This document shows positions 27,368-52,175 of a DNA stretch of 64,000 nucleotides, piece by piece. The stretch's first letter is position 1. Each line of letters starts with the position of its first letter. The notes beneath the pieces were generated by a model, which saw only the letters and a list, made by a program, of their open reading frames with translations, was not told the DNA's origin and did no database searches. Both the position numbers and the translations under genes were made by a program. This stretch comes from a virus: positions 1 through 64,000 of the IMG/VR virus record IMGVR_UViG_3300023110_001943; one strand, written 5' to 3'.

Positions 27368-27438
27368 GGACAGTTGGCCGAGTGGTGAGGTGGAGGATTG
27401 CAAATCCTTATACATAGGTTCGAATCCTATACTGTCCT
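27368..27438 (+). tRNA. tRNA-Cys(GCA)
   Basis: GGACAGT/ACTGTCC acceptor stem, TTGCAAA anticodon loop, TTCGAAT T loop. Confidence 0.92.
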
Positions 27439-27440
27439 CT

Positions 27441-43392: not shown

Positions 43393-44181
43393 ATGATGAA
43401 TAACATAATAGTAACTGGATGCTCTTACTCCACAAAAGCTGGAGTACGTTCTTCTTATGTGGATTTATTAAAATTACATTTAAAAAATACAAATGTAACA
43501 AACCTTGCATGGCCAGGTCAGTCTAATGATACTATTATTAGAAATGTTAAAGAACAAATACGAGATGGAGTAACCGATACTTTATTTATTTGTCAATTAA
43601 CTCATCTTCATCGAATATCTCAGTTTTGTCATATAAACCAAAAGTGGTTAGATTTCCAACCAGCCTATGTTAATACACAACCATTACTAAAGGATGATAA
43701 ATTACATTTCGAAATAATATTTTGGTATAAAGAAAAAAATAGACCACCTATCGGTAAAGGAAATTTTGGAGCAGTTGGGATATATGGAGCCACCAAACAT
43801 GCTGATTTAGATTTATCGGATGATATAACAAAGGAGTTATTGGATTGGTATGAAAAATATCTTTTTTATTTATATGATGATTCCAATGCATTTGTTCAAT
43901 TAAATCATAAAATAGATGAATTATCTAAACAAGTATTAGATAGTGGAAATGAAATACTTTATTTATATTGGCCAGAAGTTTTATATGATTCAACTTTATT
44001 TGATGATAATAACTTCTTATCGATTGATGGTGAGTATTCTATGTTAAAATGGTCAACTAAAAATAAATTAACCCAAAAATCAGATTCACACCTATCCACC
44101 GAAGGACATTATAAATTACTAAATAATATCATAAGTTATATAACAAAGACATCTTCCAATATACCAGTACCAATAATCTAA
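43393..44181 (+). CDS. SGNH/GDSL-like protein
   Basis: TGCSYS, NLAWPGQSN, QLT, DSHLS. Confidence 0.7.
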   Translation: MMNNIIVTGCSYSTKAGVRSSYVDLLKLHLKNTNVTNLAWPGQSNDTIIRNVKEQIRDGVTDTLFICQLTHLHRISQFCHINQKWLDFQPAYVNTQPLLKDDKLHFEIIFWYKEKNRPPIGKGNFGAVGIYGATKHADLDLSDDITKELLDWYEKYLFYLYDDSNAFVQLNHKIDELSKQVLDSGNEILYLYWPEVLYDSTLFDDNNFLSIDGEYSMLKWSTKNKLTQKSDSHLSTEGHYKLLNNIISYITKTSSNIPVPII

Positions 44182-44205: not shown

Positions 44206-44279
44206 GGGGGATTAGCTCAGCTGGCTAGAGCATCTGATTTGCATTCAGAAGGTCATCGGTTCGACTCCGATATCCTCCA
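44206..44279 (+). tRNA. tRNA-Ala(TGC)
   Basis: Cloverleaf, TTTGCAT loop, G3:U70 identity pair. Confidence 0.94.
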
Positions 44280-44298
44280 CAACTGCCAGGCAAGCGTT

Positions 44299-44370
44299 GG
44301 CCCGTTCGTCTATCGGCTAGGACACCACCCTTTCACGGTGGAGAGAGGGGTTCGATTCCCCTACGGGCTA
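44299..44370 (+). tRNA. tRNA-Glu(TTC)
   Basis: Cloverleaf, CTTTCAC loop. Confidence 0.93.
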
Positions 44371-44420
44371 CTAACTATCGTTCATTGAAATATTGTTTAA
44401 TTTAATAAAGAAAGAAAATT

Positions 44421-44783
44421 ATGGAAACACTTTATATTGTTATAGGTGCATTCTCATCGATTTTTGTGTTCCTATTGGGGTACTCGGTGAGTGGTGTATT
44501 TAATGGTAAGAAAAAAGTAGATGACTTGGAAAAGTACATCGAAAGTACTGATATGAGAATATCAGAAGTAGAACGAGAATTAAGTCAAAGACTTGATAAA
44601 GAAATCGAAGATACACATCAAACATTTAGAGATGTAGAAATCGATTTAAGAAGTCAGTTAGATTCGAGACTGGATAAACTTACGAATCAAATTATAAAAA
44701 AGATTCCACCTACCAACGAAGAGTTGATAGAACGAATCAAAAAAATGGAAGAAGAATCTTATAGATTAAGAATGAATCTATAA
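44421..44783 (+). CDS. Membrane-anchored coiled-coil protein embedded in tRNA cluster
   Basis: N-terminal TM, heptad pattern, LDSRLDKL. Confidence 0.65.
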   Translation: METLYIVIGAFSSIFVFLLGYSVSGVFNGKKKVDDLEKYIESTDMRISEVERELSQRLDKEIEDTHQTFRDVEIDLRSQLDSRLDKLTNQIIKKIPPTNEELIERIKKMEEESYRLRMNL

Positions 44784-44804
44784 GTAAATTAGAACGATAG
44801 TTTC

Positions 44805-44878
44805 GCCTCCATAGCTCAGTTGGCTAGAGCAGCTGATTTGTAATCAGCAGGTCGTGGGTTCAAGTCCCTCTGGAGGCT
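44805..44878 (+). tRNA. tRNA-Thr(TGT)
   Basis: Cloverleaf, TTTGTAA loop. Confidence 0.93.
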
Positions 44879-44890
44879 CAACATAATTTA

Positions 44891-44975
44891 GGAAGGATGG
44901 CAGAGTGGTCGATTGCACTGGTCTTGAAAACCAGCGAGGGTAACACCTCCGAGAGTTCGAATCTCTCTCCTTCCG
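44891..44975 (+). tRNA. tRNA-Ser(TGA)
   Basis: Cloverleaf with long variable arm, CTTGAAA loop. Confidence 0.93.
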
Positions 44976-44979
44976 CTTT

Positions 44980-45053
44980 GGTCTGGTAGTTCAGCTGGTT
45001 AGAATACATGCCTGTCACGCATGGGGTCGCGAGTTCGAGTCTCGTCCAGACCG
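44980..45053 (+). tRNA. tRNA-Asp(GTC)
   Basis: Cloverleaf, CTGTCAC loop. Confidence 0.93.
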
Positions 45054-45221
45054 CGAAACAAAAATAAATTATTATGAAAGATTTTTACATGGGTATCTTA
45101 TTATTTATATTGCTTGCATGGGGTATCTCTGTGGGTACACCATTAAACTTTATGGAATCATTTGGTACTGTATTTATTATGGTTCTTATAAAGAATTTAT
45201 ATGATGAATTAAAAAATTAAA

Positions 45222-47261: not shown

Positions 47262-47615
47262 ATGATTGCAAGAACATATTCTACCGTAGATTGGAGAAAA
47301 TATTTATTGGAAGAATCTAGTCCAAGAGTAAAAACCTTTTTAGATAGTAGAGGGCTTGAGGTATTTAATCAGATTTGTTCATCTATAAATCAAGCTGTAA
47401 TTCATAATAGAGATAAAGTAGTAATGTTAATACATCCAAATGCTGGTAATGTTATATTGATTAACCGAAGTGAGTATATGGAAGTATATAACATAGCAAT
47501 GAAATGGTTTGAAAAAAATGAACACTATGAAATGTGTTCTACACTAAAATCTTGGAAAGATAACTTAAATAGCAAAAAGAAGTTTGCTAAAGAAAATATT
47601 AAAAGTTTTATTTAG
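47262..47615 (+). CDS. Protein with C-terminal UVR-like motif
   Basis: FEKNEHYEMCSTLK. Confidence 0.55.
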   Translation: MIARTYSTVDWRKYLLEESSPRVKTFLDSRGLEVFNQICSSINQAVIHNRDKVVMLIHPNAGNVILINRSEYMEVYNIAMKWFEKNEHYEMCSTLKSWKDNLNSKKKFAKENIKSFI

Positions 47616-47648: not shown

Positions 47649-49556
47649 ATGAAAGGTACATTTATATCTGCAGACTTTGTTGAAGATTCTAACGGAAATA
47701 TAAAATTCTTAGAATTCAATACAGATACAGCTGCAACTCAGGCATTATTGAGTAACAACCCTTGGGTTAATCTAATAGAACTAATAAGTGGGTCTGCACT
47801 AACAGGTCAAGAAATTACAAAGTTTCATGTAATACACAAACCTTCGGTTCATCAAAATATTGTAAATAATCTATCACAATCATTAGCAGAATCTGCATCT
47901 CATATAACAAGTTTTACGGAACATCGAGAAGAACTTGAAACAATATATCCTACCAATGTTACTGATGCTGATGATACTTTTATTTTAAGAATAGCCTATG
48001 ATGAAAACGCGATATTAGATTCTACATATTGTAAGGATGGTACTAACGCTTTACGATTGTTTAATGAAAATAATGATTTAGATTCGGCAGTACCTTATTA
48101 TTATTCAAGTTCTACTGAAATTATAAACTCACTTAACATAACTTTAAATCCAAATAATTATCCTGATTTTGCTATTAAATCAAACAACCCAACAGATTCA
48201 GTTAATTTTTTTAAAGCAGGTCCAGTATTATCAGGTAGTACTTATGTTTCATCTTCAGAGTTTACTGGTGAAAGAATATCAAATTTTACTTCAAGTTTTT
48301 TTGAAGGCCTTCAAAATGAAAATACAGTTATAATGAACTATCTGTATCCATCGGAAACCGATACCGATGGTACAGTATCTTCGCTACGAACATATCATAT
48401 TACTTATGGAAATACTTTAAGTAGTATTCATCTTGGTGGATATCGTGTGTATGCACCACTTTCATTACCAACTGGTAGTCAAATAGATTGGAACGAAAGT
48501 ACGAGTTCCATAGTTGAATTAGGTAAAAAACATTATCATGAATTTTCAACATCTAATATCAAAGAAAATGCATTTATGAAACCAGGTGTATTTGAAACAG
48601 AAAAAATAGTATCATCGAGTGGTGAAACAATTGATGTTGAATTTATATATGAAAATTATAGTGGTTCAAATATAGAACTAAAAACAATATTCATTAGTGG
48701 GTCACCTGACACAGATTCACCAAGTGAGTATCTATCTTGGTATCATGGTGGAAACGAATTACCAAGTGGTTCTTTTGTAACCTCATCTAATGTTGTAAGT
48801 GTTATACGAAATACCGCAGTAGATTTTACATTAGTTGGTATAAATATTTCAGGTAGTAGTGAAATTCAATATCTTTCACCTATTAGTAATGTACTTGTAT
48901 ATGAATCATCTTCAAATGAAACAAAGTTCTTACCAGTAAAGCAAATTAGGTCTAAAGATGAACCAGGATATTTTGCATATGGTACTGATGGTACTCTTAG
49001 AAAAATTATAGATAATGAATATATAGTTTTAAACAACAACACTACTGGTAGCTTCTATTCCGTTGATGTAGAAACTAATGATTATTATTTTGTGAGTGAT
49101 TTTGCAAGTGTAGCGTTAGGAATACACAACAACTTTTGCTTTGTTGCTGGAACGGAAGTTTTACTTTCAAATAACGATGTTAAAAATATTGAAGATTTAC
49201 AAGAAGGTGATGAAGTACTATCATTTGATGTTGAAAATAATAAAACAGCAATATCAACAGTTGGAAAGATTAGTTCACAAGAGGCAAATCAGGTAGTGAG
49301 ATTAACGATAAATAATGAAAAAGTAATAGTATGTACCCCAGAACACCCATTCTATGTAGTTGGTAAGGGGTATCAAAAGGCTAAAGATTTAGATTTTGGA
49401 TTTGATTTATTAGATTCAAACGGAAATTCTCAATTTATATCTACGGTTGAGATATTGGATGAAACTCGCATGGTGTATAATTTACATAATGTAGAACCAT
49501 ATAAAAACTTTTTTGTAGATAATTTATTAGTACATAACAAACCAGGACCAACATAA
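47649..49556 (+). CDS. ATP-grasp-like protein with two tandem Hint (intein-like) domains
   Basis: ADF..D.NG..KFLEFNTDT at N-terminus; Hint1 about G313-N494 ending VDVE..DYYFV...IHN; Hint2 C497-N630 with CFVAGT, TPEH, VYNL..VHN. Confidence 0.8.
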   Translation: MKGTFISADFVEDSNGNIKFLEFNTDTAATQALLSNNPWVNLIELISGSALTGQEITKFHVIHKPSVHQNIVNNLSQSLAESASHITSFTEHREELETIYPTNVTDADDTFILRIAYDENAILDSTYCKDGTNALRLFNENNDLDSAVPYYYSSSTEIINSLNITLNPNNYPDFAIKSNNPTDSVNFFKAGPVLSGSTYVSSSEFTGERISNFTSSFFEGLQNENTVIMNYLYPSETDTDGTVSSLRTYHITYGNTLSSIHLGGYRVYAPLSLPTGSQIDWNESTSSIVELGKKHYHEFSTSNIKENAFMKPGVFETEKIVSSSGETIDVEFIYENYSGSNIELKTIFISGSPDTDSPSEYLSWYHGGNELPSGSFVTSSNVVSVIRNTAVDFTLVGINISGSSEIQYLSPISNVLVYESSSNETKFLPVKQIRSKDEPGYFAYGTDGTLRKIIDNEYIVLNNNTTGSFYSVDVETNDYYFVSDFASVALGIHNNFCFVAGTEVLLSNNDVKNIEDLQEGDEVLSFDVENNKTAISTVGKISSQEANQVVRLTINNEKVIVCTPEHPFYVVGKGYQKAKDLDFGFDLLDSNGNSQFISTVEILDETRMVYNLHNVEPYKNFFVDNLLVHNKPGPT

Positions 49557-49559
49557 GAT

Positions 49560-49715
49560 ATGACAGATTTAGAATTACAAAATAAAATATATAGAAAAAA
49601 ATTAATAGGAACATCTTCGGTTGAAGTAGAAAGAAGTATAACTGATGATAAACTATCCGCTGCTAATACTATTGTAACAAATTTATTGGGATATATTTTA
49701 GCCAAACATTCTTAA
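49560..49715 (+). CDS. Small protein (51 aa) co-transcribed with the Hint protein
   Basis: ATG 3 nt after Hint-gene stop; MTDLELQNKIYRKKLIG...LAKHS. Confidence 0.6.
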   Translation: MTDLELQNKIYRKKLIGTSSVEVERSITDDKLSAANTIVTNLLGYILAKHS

Positions 49716-49749
49716 TACTTTATATTTATATTCGTAAAGATGTTACTTT

Positions 49750-50280
49750 ATGGATATAAATAAAATTGTTCAATTAAGGCTACTTAAAGAAGATTTCAAG
49801 AAACTCCCCTTCTCAGAAAACTACACTACTTTATTTGTAGATAAATCTAATTACCAAAAATTCATTTTGGAACTACTTCGCGTATCAGATTTGATGCATG
49901 AAGATTTTGAATGGAAAGGTATTCCAAACGAAGATACACTTCACCGAAGATTTAATCACAACTCACATTGTTTATTTTGGATTTATAATGATGAGCCTAT
50001 CGGATGGGCTTGGTCTAATTATAATGTTACACCATTATGGGAAGAATCTATCCAAGAATTATCAGAAGGTGAAATATACGGAGGTGGTGCATTCTTATCT
50101 CGTAGAGTAAAAAGACCTCCAAACTCTGGTCTTATATTCTATAACTTAACATTTGATTATTGGTTAAACGAAATGAATAATGATTGTATATTACAATACT
50201 CTGATGATTGGAATCGGGTATCATCAATCATGAGTTACAAAAATGGTTTTAAAAACTATAACTTTATAAAGGAAGAATAA
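49750..50280 (+). CDS. GNAT-fold-like protein
   Basis: PIGWAW beta strand, DDWNRVS...KNGF C-terminal GNAT-type motif. Confidence 0.5.
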   Translation: MDINKIVQLRLLKEDFKKLPFSENYTTLFVDKSNYQKFILELLRVSDLMHEDFEWKGIPNEDTLHRRFNHNSHCLFWIYNDEPIGWAWSNYNVTPLWEESIQELSEGEIYGGGAFLSRRVKRPPNSGLIFYNLTFDYWLNEMNNDCILQYSDDWNRVSSIMSYKNGFKNYNFIKEE

Positions 50281-50942
50281 TGGCAGAGAACATTTCAAAA
50301 ACCCCACCAAGGGGTAAAATCAAATTTGATATCACATTATCAGAAGAACAAAAACATGCTAAAACGGCAATCTTATATCATCCATATAATTTTGTTTTGG
50401 GTAAAGCTGGTAGTGGTAAAACACTCCTAGCGGTACAGATTGCATTAGATATGTTTTTTACAAGACAAATAAATAAAATCATTATAACAAGACCAACAGT
50501 ATCAAATGAAGATAATGGATATCTACCAGGTTCACTTACAGAAAAGATGGAGCCTTGGTTAGTTCCAATTCGTTCTAACATGAGAAAGGTTTATAACAAA
50601 CCTGCTATATTACAAAAAATGGAATCGAATGAAGATATTGAATTAGTATCACTATCACATTTTAGAGGAAGAACATTTGATAATTCGGCGGTAATTGTAG
50701 ATGAGTTTCAAAACTTAACTAAACAACAACTTGGAATGGTGTTAGGTAGATTGGGTAAAGGTTCTACAATGATGTTATGTGGAGACCCACAGCAGATTGA
50801 TTTAAAGTTTGGTAATGATTCTGCAATACATGAAGTTCCTAAATTAAAAGGTTCTCAATATGTTTATTCTGTTAATCTTTTAGATAATCACAGACACGAA
50901 GCATTAGATGAGTTATTAAACTTATTACAACAATATGCCTAA
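50280..50942 (+). CDS. phoH: PhoH-like ATPase
   Basis: GKAGSGKT, ITRP, GYLPG, RGRTF, DEFQN, GDPQQ. Confidence 0.93.
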   Translation: MAENISKTPPRGKIKFDITLSEEQKHAKTAILYHPYNFVLGKAGSGKTLLAVQIALDMFFTRQINKIIITRPTVSNEDNGYLPGSLTEKMEPWLVPIRSNMRKVYNKPAILQKMESNEDIELVSLSHFRGRTFDNSAVIVDEFQNLTKQQLGMVLGRLGKGSTMMLCGDPQQIDLKFGNDSAIHEVPKLKGSQYVYSVNLLDNHRHEALDELLNLLQQYA

Positions 50943-51558
50943 ACCAAGATTATTTATATGTGGTGATTCTTTTGTGGATTGGGATATTCCTACATACCAT
51001 TGGACTGATTATTTAAAAGAACACTATGATGTAATTATACTTGGAGAACGAGGTTCTGATAACATATCAATAATATTTCAGCTAGGAAACTTACCACAAT
51101 ATAAAGATGGTGATAGGATAATAATATATTGGTCAGACCCATCACGAATACAAAAACTTTATTGGGGAAAACATAAACCAAAAAGAAAAGGTAGATGGTG
51201 GGATTACTCTCATCTATTTGAAAAGGATAGAATACCTACTTTAGAAAAAATGAAAGTAGATAGAACTATTGGTTGGGAAACCGATGGTTTAGGTAATGAA
51301 GTGAAATTTATAAAAAAATTAAAAGATTTATTATCTCAATATAAACCAATATACGTTACCTGGAATTCTTTTTTTCATGAACATACAAAAGAGGTTACTG
51401 AATTAATTCAAGTTTCTTCTTTACAAGATGAGGTTGGTAATGGTGAAACTGTGGGAGATTGGCATCCTGGAGAAAAAGGTTGTTATGATATTTATAAAAT
51501 ACTTTTAAATAAGTTAGGTGATGAAGTGCCATTACCATTTAAAAATAATTTGTTATGA
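50935..51558 (+). CDS. SGNH/GDSL-like protein
   Basis: CGDSF, GSDN, YWS, DWHPG. Confidence 0.7.
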   Translation: MPKPRLFICGDSFVDWDIPTYHWTDYLKEHYDVIILGERGSDNISIIFQLGNLPQYKDGDRIIIYWSDPSRIQKLYWGKHKPKRKGRWWDYSHLFEKDRIPTLEKMKVDRTIGWETDGLGNEVKFIKKLKDLLSQYKPIYVTWNSFFHEHTKEVTELIQVSSLQDEVGNGETVGDWHPGEKGCYDIYKILLNKLGDEVPLPFKNNLL

Positions 51559-52175
51559 AAAGGTGTTGGTTCTTCGGTGATTCTTTTACTCGTGGTGATA
51601 TGTGTTATGAGGGTGATACTTACTACAATATGACATATCATGTAGGATGTAAAAGATGGACTGAAATTGTATCTGATTATTTAAATATGAAAGAAGAGAA
51701 TTGGGCTTGGGGAGGTAACTCCAATTTACATATACTATATGATTTGATTAGAAATGTAAATATCTTTGAAAAAAATGAGTGGGTAATTGTAGGAGATACG
51801 CGGCCAAATAGATTAATATCATTTAAAGAAAATGGTGATATACGAAATCAAATTAATGACCCACACTTTGGTTATAAAAAAGGAGATAAAGTAGTACTTG
51901 ATTATATACTTGAAGAAATTATTCCTAATGAAAAATATTATCAAGATTATTATGAAACTATGTTTTTAGAAATATTAAAATCTTTAGAAAAACGAGGGGT
52001 TAATACTTTATTTTGGAAACATACAGATTTTTGGTATCCCAACCCTAAATTAGAAAGTATTCAACAACATACTAATTATAAAATAAAAGATTTACATTAT
52101 TCTTGGAATGCTCATGCTAAAAAGGCTGAAATTATAATTTCAAAAATTAATAAAGAGGAAAAACAAATTTTATGA
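51555..52175 (+). CDS. SGNH/GDSL-like protein
   Basis: FGDSFTRG, GNSN, DLHYS. Confidence 0.7.
   Translation: MKRCWFFGDSFTRGDMCYEGDTYYNMTYHVGCKRWTEIVSDYLNMKEENWAWGGNSNLHILYDLIRNVNIFEKNEWVIVGDTRPNRLISFKENGDIRNQINDPHFGYKKGDKVVLDYILEEIIPNEKYYQDYYETMFLEILKSLEKRGVNTLFWKHTDFWYPNPKLESIQQHTNYKIKDLHYSWNAHAKKAEIIISKINKEEKQIL

What the first reader, a model, noticed from the sequence alone, without database searches (positions are those of the whole stretch)
47649..50280. ATP-grasp-like protein with two tandem Hint domains bracketing tiny peptides, plus small ORF and GNAT-like gene
Seen: Hint2 (C497-N630) is complete, with CFVAGT block A, TPEH block B and VYNL...VHN, followed only by KPGPT. The +1 residue is Lys, not Cys/Ser/Thr, as in BIL-type Hint domains. 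Directly upstream is a second, degenerate Hint (about G313-N494). Its start GVFETEKIVSSSGETIDVEFI aligns without gaps to CFVAGTEVLLSNNDVKNIEDL but has Gly instead of Cys1 and lacks TxxH, while it keeps the C-terminal FYSVDVETNDYYFV...IHN motif. Only NF separates the two Hints. The N-terminus ADFVEDSNGNIKFLEFNTDT resembles the D...KLLEYNADT motif of glutathionylspermidine-synthetase-type ATP-grasp ligases. Established: Hint domains perform N-S acyl shift at Cys1 and Asn cyclisation at HN. Inference: Hint1 cleaves only at its C-terminus, and Hint2 then carries an activated NF thioester that could be ligated to KPGPT or to an external acceptor. This would be an autoprocessing device for making or attaching a micro-peptide, possibly with the 51-aa ORF (49560) and GNAT-like enzyme (49750).
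Basis: partly seen in the sequence, partly recalled or inferred. Interest (0 to 1): 0.85.

Follow-up and report, generated by a model that had tools for sequence, protein, structure and literature searches.

The report
Phage ATP-grasp ligase with self-cleaving Hint tail
A large marine phage encodes a probable ATP-dependent ligase fused to a half-disabled and an intact self-cleaving Hint domain and always paired with a tiny partner protein, a gene pair I found described nowhere, but the "tiny peptide factory" idea fails because the peptides are not conserved.

Summary

**What is confirmed in the 635-aa ORF (47649-49556)**
- Residues 1-~300 model as a circularly permuted ATP-grasp of the glutathione-synthetase/GspS/YgiC type (Z 8.2-9.7). 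D9, E22 and N24 are invariant.
- Residues 313-494 model as a Hint fold (Z 17.6). G313 sits at the Cys1 position and there is no TxxH. The terminal Asn is kept in 268/268 relatives and His-Asn in 265/268.
- Residues 497-630 are a complete A-type BIL-like Hint.

**What is not conserved**
- NF and KPGPT are incidental. The linker is 0-12 aa of any sequence.
- The commonest tail is a single Lys.
- Relatives carry 0-4 canonical Hints, and these swap between cores as cassettes.
- In distant relatives, Hint1's HN is followed directly by 6-Cys peptides or an S74-like domain.

**Neighbours**
- The 51-aa ORF follows directly in 52/52 loci and in all 3 divergent loci checked.
- It is predicted to bind the core (ipSAE 0.80, best control 0.00).
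- The GNAT-like gene is not a fixed neighbour (16/52 loci).

**Best reading:** a two-subunit phage ligase whose C-terminal Hints trim themselves off. The substrate is unknown. The scan noted this same stretch before, on this DNA only.

The parts
47649..49556 (+). Whole gene: 635-aa ATP-grasp / Hint1 / BIL-Hint precursor
   Evidence: ORF. More than 265 full-length homologues in marine metagenomes and viral contigs. All start MKGT at residue 1.
47649..48548 (+). N-domain (aa 1-~300): circularly permuted ATP-grasp, glutathione-synthetase/GspS/YgiC-like
   Evidence: AF2 pLDDT 88.7. VIA Z 9.7 to 5oeu, 9.0 to YgiC 7uka, 8.6 to GspS 2io7, 8.4 to Cp1B 9cjn. Foldseek E 5e-6 to 1e-3 to the same set. Invariant S7, D9, E22, N24, T25, D26, K64, R114, Y117, D118, D124, D173, K177.
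48585..49130 (+). Hint1 (aa 313-494): Hint fold without Cys1 (G313) and without TxxH; invariant E475, D478, H493, N494
   Evidence: AF2 pLDDT 85.3. VIA Z 17.6. Foldseek. hhalign to Hint2 E 2.1e-6. HN census 265/268, Asn 268/268.
49131..49136 (+). Linker Asn495-Phe496 between the Hint1 HN and Cys1 of Hint2
   Evidence: Not conserved: 0-12 aa in the family; NF in 2 of 170.
49137..49538 (+). Hint2 (aa 497-630): complete A-type BIL-like Hint (C497, T563xxH566, H629-N630)
   Evidence: Pfam PT-HINT 1.8e-17. PDB profile hit 2lwy 5.6e-23. Behaves as a swappable cassette.
49539..49553 (+). Tail KPGPT; only the +1 basic residue is conserved
   Evidence: +1 is K in 160 and R in 82 of 265 canonical Hints. 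The tail is 'K' alone in 97 proteins.
49560..49715 (+). 51-aa partner protein (invariant Tyr11 in a YK/YR motif; C-terminal K-x-K-H-x); start codon 3 nt after the stop of the big gene
   Evidence: Directly downstream in 52/52 loci and in three divergent loci. Alignment A8. Predicted complex ipSAE 0.80 against best control 0.00.

Best explanation
The gene pair 47649-49556 plus 49560-49715 most likely encodes a two-subunit ATP-dependent carboxylate-amine ligase of a large marine phage. Its catalytic subunit is made as a precursor with self-removing Hint modules at its C-terminus.

Shown (by computation):
- The core is a permuted ATP-grasp domain plus a Hint-fold domain (Hint1).
- Hint1 has lost the N-terminal nucleophile but keeps the C-terminal His-Asn.
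- A complete BIL-type Hint follows it.
- The 51-aa protein always accompanies the core. It is predicted to clamp its C-terminal helix on the ATP-grasp sheet and its YK strand on Hint1.

Inferred:
1. Hint2 makes a thioester at F496-C497, which is hydrolysed, and its Asn630 cyclises. Hint2 thereby cuts itself out.
2. Hint1's Asn494 can cyclise and cut off whatever lies downstream.
3. The mature enzyme is core 1-494/496 plus the small subunit. NF and KPGPT are by-products.
4. The canonical Hints are exchangeable, intein-like cassettes parked behind the core, not part of the ligase chemistry.

The ligase substrate is unknown.
For: Fold and motifs of the three domains.

Active-site-type conservation:
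- D9/E22/N24 align to the D-x12-E-x-N of YgiC and are invariant in 47-71 sequences.
- Canonical Hints keep Cys1 in 271/278 and HN in 265/278.
- Hint1 keeps Asn in 268/268.

The core is the constant unit:
- Architectures range from N+Hint1 alone to four added Hints.
- Forms without a canonical Hint end HN plus 1-10 aa, with a K/R within 1-6 residues.

Cassette behaviour:
- P0002's core is 83% identical to the window's, but its Hint only 30%.
- That same Hint is 93% identical to the Hint of P0014, whose core is 46% identical to P0002's.
- 72 pairs have Hints >=80% identical and cores <=50% identical.
- Copies within one protein are only ~30% identical.

Partner:
- Adjacent in 52/52 loci, and in 3/3 divergent loci.
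- ipSAE 0.80/0.82/0.79 against best control 0.00. That mark was reached by 58 of 80 solved complexes and 2 of 110 mismatched pairs. Run agreement is at least 87%; partner pLDDT is at least 81.

Family range:
- Essentially virus-only: 339 cluster representatives among 1.84 billion.
- 1 hit in 185,579 prokaryote genomes, on a 2.8-kb MAG contig.
Against: - No biochemical result exists; all cleavage and ligase steps rest on motifs and predicted folds.
- If Hint1 cuts efficiently by itself, selection to keep the canonical Hints catalytically intact is unexplained. They may therefore do something useful.
- Fold similarity of the N-domain is moderate (Z <10, TM ~0.4). Pfam GSP_synth is below its cut-off (13.4 against 29.3 bits), and the ATP-binding lysines were not mapped.
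- The Arg of the R-x-D motif of YgiC/GspS is absent (S7-A8-D9).
- Some distant relatives carry a Peptidase_S74-like tail-fibre chaperone, which could mean a virion-structural role.
Confidence: 0.5

Rival explanations
1. Productive thioester use. The BIL-type Hint(s) do more than remove themselves. The thioester at the core's C-terminus is attacked by a specific nucleophile, as cholesterol attacks in Hedgehog. Alternatively, it is attacked by the freed alpha-amine of the +1 Lys, as in A-type BIL splicing. Either way the ligase core becomes covalently attached to a target, or is rejoined to the Lys tail.
For: - The catalytic residues of the canonical Hints are kept across hundreds of divergent copies, although Hint1 could in principle discard them.
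- The +1 residue is basic in 242/265.
- Spliced products (HN + 0-3 aa + K) would resemble the C-termini of Hint-less relatives, such as HNK and HNAK....
- BIL domains are known to auto-cleave at either end (review PMC7765530).
Against: - Copy number varies from 0 to 4 and cassettes swap freely, which is unexpected for a tuned attachment device.
- No sterol-recognition-like or acceptor-binding region follows the Hint.
- The review read states that A-type BILs cleave but do not ligate their flanks.
Confidence: 0.2
2. Cargo-release platform. Hint1 is a dedicated asparagine-lyase that releases whatever is encoded after its HN, and the ATP-grasp acts on that cargo. In this phage the cargo happens to be a BIL Hint. 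In distant relatives it is a 6-Cys peptide.
For: - In the divergent branch, HN is followed directly by 29-34-aa tails with 6 Cys (P0241, P0254, P0255, P0262, P0263), by longer Cys-rich tails, or by an S74-like domain.
- The terminal Asn is kept in 268/268.
- The same small partner gene follows in those loci.
Against: - For this window the 'cargo' would be a Hint domain plus five residues, with no obvious use.
- No evidence links the ATP-grasp to the tail.
- The Cys-rich tails could instead be metal-binding or structural modules that stay attached.
Confidence: 0.15
3. One reading: Hint1 and Hint2 bracket NF, so that an activated NF thioester is ligated to KPGPT or to an external acceptor. This would make or attach a micro-peptide, helped by the GNAT-like enzyme.
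For: The chemistry is possible in principle: Cys1 thioester, Asn cyclisation at both HN sites, and motifs present.
Against: - Linker and tail are not conserved in length or sequence: 0 aa in 27 relatives; NF in 2; the tail is a single K in 97.
- Hint number varies from 0 to 4.
- The GNAT-like gene is absent from 36/52 loci.
Confidence: 0.03
4. The N-domain and Hint1 are non-catalytic relics serving as a structural (possibly virion) protein. HN is kept for folding only.
For: - S74-like tail-fibre chaperone modules occur in some relatives (below the Pfam cut-off).
- GSP_synth is below its cut-off, and the Arg of R-x-D is missing.
Against: - A string of charged residues is invariant (D9, E22, N24, K64, R114, D118, D124, D173, K177) over sequences only 32-42% identical. 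This is typical of an active site.
- HN is lost in Hint families that do not cyclise Asn (Hedgehog, B-type BIL; established knowledge).
Confidence: 0.1

Closest known systems
A-type bacterial intein-like (BIL) domains / PT-HINT (e.g. C. thermocellum BIL, PDB 2lwy; Tetrahymena BUBL BIL2, PDB 6tmm/6y75)
   Same: Hint2 has Cys1, TxxH, C-terminal HN and a non-nucleophilic +1 residue. Its best sequence and fold matches are these BIL domains. Like BILs, it sits in a variable, recombining part of a protein (PMC7765530).
   Different: It sits at the extreme C-terminus with only 1-6 residues after it. It occurs in arrays of 0-4, behind a second Hint that has lost its N-terminal chemistry, and in phage genomes rather than in bacterial secreted proteins or ciliate ubiquitin-like loci.
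Glutathionylspermidine synthetase family and eukaryotic glutathione synthetase (circularly permuted ATP-grasp: E. coli GspS 2io7, YgiC 7uka, human GS 2hgs, fungal Cp1B 9cjn)
   Same: The predicted fold and permuted strand order match. The D-x12/13-E-x-N-x-D-T motif sits at the start of the domain. These relatives are carboxylate-amine ligases. YgiC is annotated as a peptide-spermidine ligase, and Cp1B joins an acid to an amino acid (PMC12568646).
   Different: About 95 residues shorter at the N-terminus than YgiC, so the protein begins at the Mg-binding hairpin. No Arg in R-x-D. Below the Pfam threshold. Fused to Hint domains and paired with a ~47-aa protein that may supply the missing part in trans (inference).
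Hedgehog C-terminal autoprocessing domain
   Same: A C-terminal Hint whose thioester frees an N-terminal functional domain. Hint1 matches 1at0 at Z 15.3.
   Different: No sterol-recognition region. HN and Asn cyclisation motifs are present, which Hedgehog lacks. Two Hints stand in series.
Small-protein partners of ATP-grasp ligases (LysW with LysX/ArgX; ribosomal protein S6 with RimK)
   Same: A ~50-aa protein encoded next to an ATP-grasp and predicted to dock on it. ArgX-LysW 3vpb is the best classical ATP-grasp match, Z 6.3.
   Different: There is no acidic C-terminal acceptor; the tail is K-x-K-H-x. The predicted contacts do not name the catalytic residues D9, E22 or N24, which suggests a structural subunit rather than a carrier. 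A residue not named by the tool is uncertain, not shown absent.

Membership tests
Hint superfamily, A-type BIL-like (Hint2, aa 497-630) | Sequence match to Hint/BIL models above the curated threshold | tested here: met
   PT-HINT 64.3 bits (cut-off 27.7) and Intein_splicing 49.3 (35.8). 2lwy E 5.6e-23.
Hint superfamily, A-type BIL-like (Hint2) | N-terminal Cys/Ser, block B TxxH, C-terminal His-Asn, and a +1 residue that is not Cys/Ser/Thr | tested here: met
   C497, T563-P-E-H566, H629-N630, K631. Family: Cys1 271/278, HN 265/278, +1 K/R 242/265.
Hint superfamily, A-type BIL-like (Hint2) | Self-cleavage activity | not testable with these tools
   Needs expression and mass spectrometry.
Intein (Hint2) | Inserted within a conserved host protein, followed by a +1 Cys/Ser/Thr, with the exteins ligated | tested here: not met
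   +1 is Lys. The C-extein is 5 aa here and 1 aa in most relatives.
Hint fold (Hint1, aa 313-494) | Hint horseshoe fold | tested here: met
   On a predicted model: VIA Z 17.6, rmsd 1.8 A over 142 aa, and all 33 hits are Hint folds. Foldseek E 1.2e-7. hhalign E 2.1e-6.
Hint fold (Hint1) | N-terminal nucleophile (Cys/Ser) and block B TxxH | tested here: not met
   G313 sits at position 1 and is not conserved. No His at block B.
Hint fold (Hint1) | C-terminal His-Asn for Asn cyclisation | tested here: met
   HN in 265/268 and Asn in 268/268. E475 and D478 are invariant in block F.
ATP-grasp, GspS / eukaryotic glutathione synthetase type (aa 1-300) | Permuted ATP-grasp fold | tested here: met
   On a predicted model: the top 11 VIA hits (Z 7.1-9.7) and the top Foldseek hits are all of this group. 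Classical ATP-grasps align only from residue ~55, at Z 5-6.
ATP-grasp, GspS type | Pfam GSP_synth (PF03738) above the gathering score | tested here: not met
   13.4 bits against 29.3, E 0.0021, residues 5-98 only. No hit at E<=1 in hmmscan.
ATP-grasp, GspS type | Mg-binding Asp ... Glu-x-Asn motif | tested here: met
   D9, E22 and N24 are invariant. They align to YgiC D102, E115 and N117 (the alignment is weak overall, Prob 6.5%).
ATP-grasp, GspS type | ATP-binding lysines / Gly-rich loop, and ligase activity | tested here: inconclusive
   K64, K177 and K189 are conserved, but they were not mapped onto a solved active site. Activity is not testable here.
GNAT acetyltransferase (neighbour 49750-50280) | Pfam Acetyltransf_1 above its cut-off | tested here: not met
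   12.7 bits against 20.7, E 0.16. Atlas features score 0.93-0.94 to GNAT clusters, which is only a lead.
Peptidase_S74 chaperone (only in distant relatives P0251, P0209, P0238) | Pfam PF13884 above its cut-off | tested here: inconclusive
   21.6, 18.0 and 17.2 bits against a cut-off of 22. The SD..LKKNI and GVIAQ motifs are visible.

The most novel reading that the evidence does not exclude
Hint1 is a single-purpose asparagine-lyase 'release valve' built into a phage ATP-grasp enzyme. The family would then be a platform that makes ribosomal cargo as a C-terminal fusion to its own maturase and frees it by Asn cyclisation. The cargo is 6-Cys peptides in relatives and exchangeable BIL Hints here. 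The ATP-grasp, together with the 47-aa partner, would modify or ligate the cargo. That would be a new route to phage-made peptides, with the precursor fused to its enzyme.
Probability: 0.15. Interest if true: 0.85.

Novelty: new variant of a known kind. Interest (0 to 1): 0.62.

Why it matters
- **A natural test case for Hint chemistry.** Hint1 has lost Cys1 and TxxH but keeps its terminal Asn in every one of 268 relatives. It could show C-terminal-only (asparagine-lyase) chemistry at work.
- **Mobile Hints without homing.** BIL-type Hints appear to behave as exchangeable cassettes at a protein's C-terminus in phages, with no homing endonuclease. This bears on how intein-like elements spread.
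- **A family found described nowhere.** The permuted ATP-grasp with an obligate ~47-aa partner has 339 cluster representatives among 1.84 billion proteins and is almost exclusively viral. It is common in large marine phages, and its substrate could reveal a new phage modification or takeover reaction.
- **Possible tools.** Self-cleaving modules that tolerate any downstream sequence are also useful for protein engineering.

Tried and rejected
- **Micro-peptide product (NF, KPGPT):** rejected by the census of 175 relatives.
- **GNAT-like gene, 117-aa, 376-aa, PhoH and dCMP deaminase genes as fixed partners:** present in only 9-17 of 52 loci within about 6 kb. A local syntenic block exists only among the closer relatives.
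- **Class 3 intein reading of Hint1 (block F nucleophile):** the position after the conserved Tyr of block F is variable and there is no WCT pattern.
- **Recent tandem duplication of the Hints:** rejected. Copies within one protein are a median 30% and at most 51% identical.
- **Named families for the N-domain:** PHROGs and NCBIfam hit only the Hint2 part. tblastn against named phages found only Hint-domain matches. BFVD Foldseek gave nothing below E 0.1.
- **hhalign of the N-domain against a single YgiC sequence:** weak (Prob 6.5%) beyond the first motif, so no residue-level map of the ATP site was obtained.
- **Literature:** searches for ATP-grasp plus Hint in phages found no description of this architecture.
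- **T4 Gp23 capsid family:** not found in the 141-kb record, but the control search also rang nowhere, so this says nothing.
Full report
**1. Setting**

The window is part of an IMG/VR virus record of 141,496 bp, estimated ~76% complete. It has ~30% G+C, nearly all genes on the + strand, and 10 tRNA genes. It also carries PhoH, dCMP deaminase, UvdE, radical SAM and many tailoring enzymes. This is a large marine phage.

The ORF 47649-49556 encodes 635 aa.

Yes, on all three domain calls.

*Hint2 (aa 497-630)*
- It passes Pfam PT-HINT (64.3 bits, cut-off 27.7), Intein_splicing and Hint.
- A family profile hits the C. thermocellum bacterial intein-like domain 2lwy at E 5.6e-23, and the Tetrahymena BUBL BIL2 domain at 8e-23.
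- C497, T563-P-E-H566 and H629-N630 are present. Then come K631-P-G-P-T and the stop codon.

*Hint1 (aa 313-494)*
- An AF2 model of residues 286-496, built on 71 aligned sequences, has pLDDT 85.3.
- VIA-align gives Z 17.6 (rmsd 1.8 A, 142 aa) to BIL2 6tmm and Z 17.2 to 2lwy.
- Every one of the 33 chains with Z>=2 is a Hint fold. Foldseek agrees.
- Model residue 28 (= G313) aligns with residue 1 of inteins and with Cys258 of Hedgehog.
- Profile-profile hhalign of the Hint1 and Hint2 columns gives E 2.1e-6, with G313 on C497 and HN on HN.
- Hint1 carries a ~25-aa insertion (SGSPDTD...LPSGS) and has no His at block B.

*N-domain (aa 1-~300)*
- The AF2 model of residues 1-312 has pLDDT 88.7.
- The best VIA matches are a glutathione-synthetase-like protein 5oeu (Z 9.7), E. 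coli YgiC (9.0), T. brucei GS (8.7), E. coli GspS (8.6) and the fungal ligase Cp1B (8.4).
- All of these are circularly permuted ATP-grasps. Classical ATP-grasps (ArgX, RimK, Ddl, TTLL) follow at Z 5-6 and align only from residue ~55, as expected for a permutation. Foldseek gives the same list at E 5e-6 to 1e-3.
- The similarity is moderate (TM ~0.4). Pfam GSP_synth reaches only 13.4 bits on residues 5-98.
- The motif S-A-D9-F...L-E22-F-N24-T-D-T aligns with S-R-L-D-L...L-E-N-N-A-D-T of YgiC.
- S7, D9, E22, N24, T25, D26, K64, R114, Y117, D118, D124, D173 and K177 are invariant in 47 sequences that are 32-42% identical to the window's.

**3. The family**

There are more than 265 full-length relatives in marine metagenomes, and 80 loci on viral contigs of up to 326 kb.

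An exhaustive profile search with the N-domain alone finds only 339 cluster representatives among 1.84 billion. The domain always starts at residue 1, with MKGT.

Only one 2.8-kb contig in 185,579 prokaryote genomes has it. No named phage has more than the Hint part.

**4. What varies and what does not**

Census of 175 distinct proteins:

| Feature | Result |
|---|---|
| Core + no canonical Hint | 4 |
| Core + 1 canonical Hint | 63 |
| Core + 2 | 101 (100, plus one whose N-domain matched in two pieces) |
| Core + 3 | 6 |
| Core + 4 | 1 |
| Linker, Hint1-HN to Cys1 | 0 aa (27), 1 aa (10), 2 aa (92, mostly AP), up to 12 aa |
| NF as linker | 2 |
| +1 residue after canonical Hint | K (160) or R (82) of 265 |
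| Tail after last HN | 'K' alone in 97; KPGPT in 2 |

- So the two "tiny peptides" of the finding are incidental.
- Hint1's terminal Asn is present in 268/268 proteins with a complete Hint1, and His-Asn in 265/268.
- Forms without a canonical Hint end in HN plus 1-10 residues, for example HNK and HNAK...

*A more distant branch.* The same core and HN are followed directly by one of three things:
- 29-34-aa tails with six Cys;
- longer Cys-rich tails;
- a domain resembling the Peptidase_S74 tail-fibre chaperone (17-21.6 bits, cut-off 22).

**5. The canonical Hints are cassettes**

- P0002's core is 83% identical to the window's core, but its Hint is only 30% identical.
- That same Hint is 93% identical to the Hint of P0014, whose core is 46% identical to P0002's.
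- 72 pairs have Hints >=80% identical and cores <=50% identical.
- The clade of P0027 and the clade of P0066 have cores 88-89% identical, but Hints 37% identical.
- Copies within one protein are old and different (median 30% identity, maximum 51%).
- This is the behaviour described for BIL domains, which sit in variable regions subject to genetic rearrangement (PMC7765530). No homing endonuclease is present.

**6. Neighbours**

*The small ORF*
- A 44-55-aa ORF follows directly in 52/52 loci, with a gap usually under 25 nt and 3 nt here.
- Three loci of the divergent branch also have it, with ORFs of 37-49 aa.
- Its Tyr11 (YK/YR motif) is invariant and His50 nearly so. The C-terminus is K-x-K-H-x.

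*Predicted binding*
- A co-fold of the 635-aa protein with the 51-aa protein scores ipSAE 0.80/0.82/0.79, against a best control of 0.00.
- That mark was reached by 58 of 80 solved complexes and 2 of 110 mismatched pairs.
- The runs agree in at least 87% of contacts, and partner pLDDT is at least 81.
- The partner's C-terminal helix (aa 31-50) lies on residues 8-23, 122-146 and 246-271 of the ATP-grasp. Its YK strand (aa 9-18) pairs with residues 455-467 of Hint1.
- The contact list names residues 8, 10 and 23 on the catalytic hairpin, but not D9, E22 or N24. A residue not named by the tool is uncertain, not shown absent.
- This points to a structural subunit rather than a substrate. It may stand in for the ~95 N-terminal residues that YgiC has and this protein lacks (inference).
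- This is a model's confidence, not a measurement.

*Other genes*
- The GNAT-like ORF 49750-50280 lies within 6 kb in only 16/52 loci, at varying positions.
- Pfam does not support the GNAT call (E 0.16). Atlas features lean that way (0.93-0.94).

**7. Mechanism**

*Shown by computation:* the architecture, the conservation pattern, the cassette exchange, the universal partner and its predicted docking.

*Inferred:*
1. The BIL-type Hint makes a thioester at F496-C497 and cyclises N630, excising itself.
2. Hint1, which cannot act at its own N-terminus, cyclises N494 and sheds whatever follows.
3. The mature enzyme is core plus partner. It is a carboxylate-amine ligase like its structural relatives: YgiC is annotated as a peptide-spermidine ligase, and Cp1B joins an acid to an amino acid (PMC12568646).

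*The open tension.* If Hint1 sheds everything, it is unclear why the canonical Hints stay catalytically intact. This keeps two rivals alive:
- productive use of the thioester, whether Hedgehog-like attachment or BIL-type rejoining to the +1 Lys;
- a cargo-release platform, suggested by the Cys-rich tails of distant relatives.

**8. Novelty**

Each domain type is known. The combination is not described in the papers searched. It comprises:
- a permuted ATP-grasp;
- a Hint that keeps only its C-terminal chemistry;
- 0-4 swappable BIL Hints;
- an obligate ~47-aa partner.

It has no Pfam, PHROG or NCBIfam model for its core. I class it as a new variant of known kinds.

The scan had noted this same stretch before, on this genome only.

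Noticed in passing
P0257, P0242, P0234, P0241, P0254, P0255, P0262, P0263 (relatives; loci L088, L090): Distant relatives have the same ATP-grasp + Hint1 core. Their HN is followed at once by a Cys-rich tail of about 24-34 aa; five of them have exactly six Cys. Some relatives have longer Cys-rich tails. These could be released peptides.
   Followed up: partly
P0251, P0209, P0238, P0258 (relatives; locus L089): C-terminal region with SD..LKKNI ... GVIAQ ... motifs resembling the Peptidase_S74 intramolecular chaperone of phage tail fibres. The region follows the Hint1 HN directly in P0209 and lies after a Cys-rich stretch in the others. Pfam gives 17-21.6 bits for P0251, P0209 and P0238 (cut-off 22) and no hit for P0258.
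   Followed up: partly
P0252 (302 aa relative): N-domain that seems fused directly to a C-terminus resembling the small partner protein (...ILNEFFRVIKTKHR). It is either a natural deletion/fusion or an assembly or gene-calling artefact.
   Followed up: no
window 47262-47615 (+): 117-aa protein directly upstream, with no family hit. It is conserved next to the gene in the closer relatives (17/52 loci), with invariant W11 and W82.
   Followed up: partly
window 27368-27439, 33572-34046, 44206-45054: Ten tRNA genes in three groups (Cys; Leu-Arg-Lys-Met; Ala-Glu ... Thr-Ser-Asp). ORFs listed at 44239-44388 and 44878-45018 overlap tRNA genes, so they are probably not protein-coding genes.
   Followed up: no
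L065, L078 (relatives): The first canonical Hint lacks Cys1 (...GFIGDTEI) and its terminal HN, so some cassettes are decaying.
   Followed up: no
L092 (CAYNGR010000277.1): The only hit in the prokaryote genome set is a 2.8-kb contig binned with an uncultured Cyanobium MAG. It is probably a phage contig and gives at most a weak host hint for that relative.
   Followed up: no
window 50935-51558, 51555-52175, 43393-44181: Several paralogous ~200-260-aa proteins have no Pfam hit at E<=0.001. A homologue of the 207-aa one occurs near the Hint gene in 23/52 loci.
   Followed up: no
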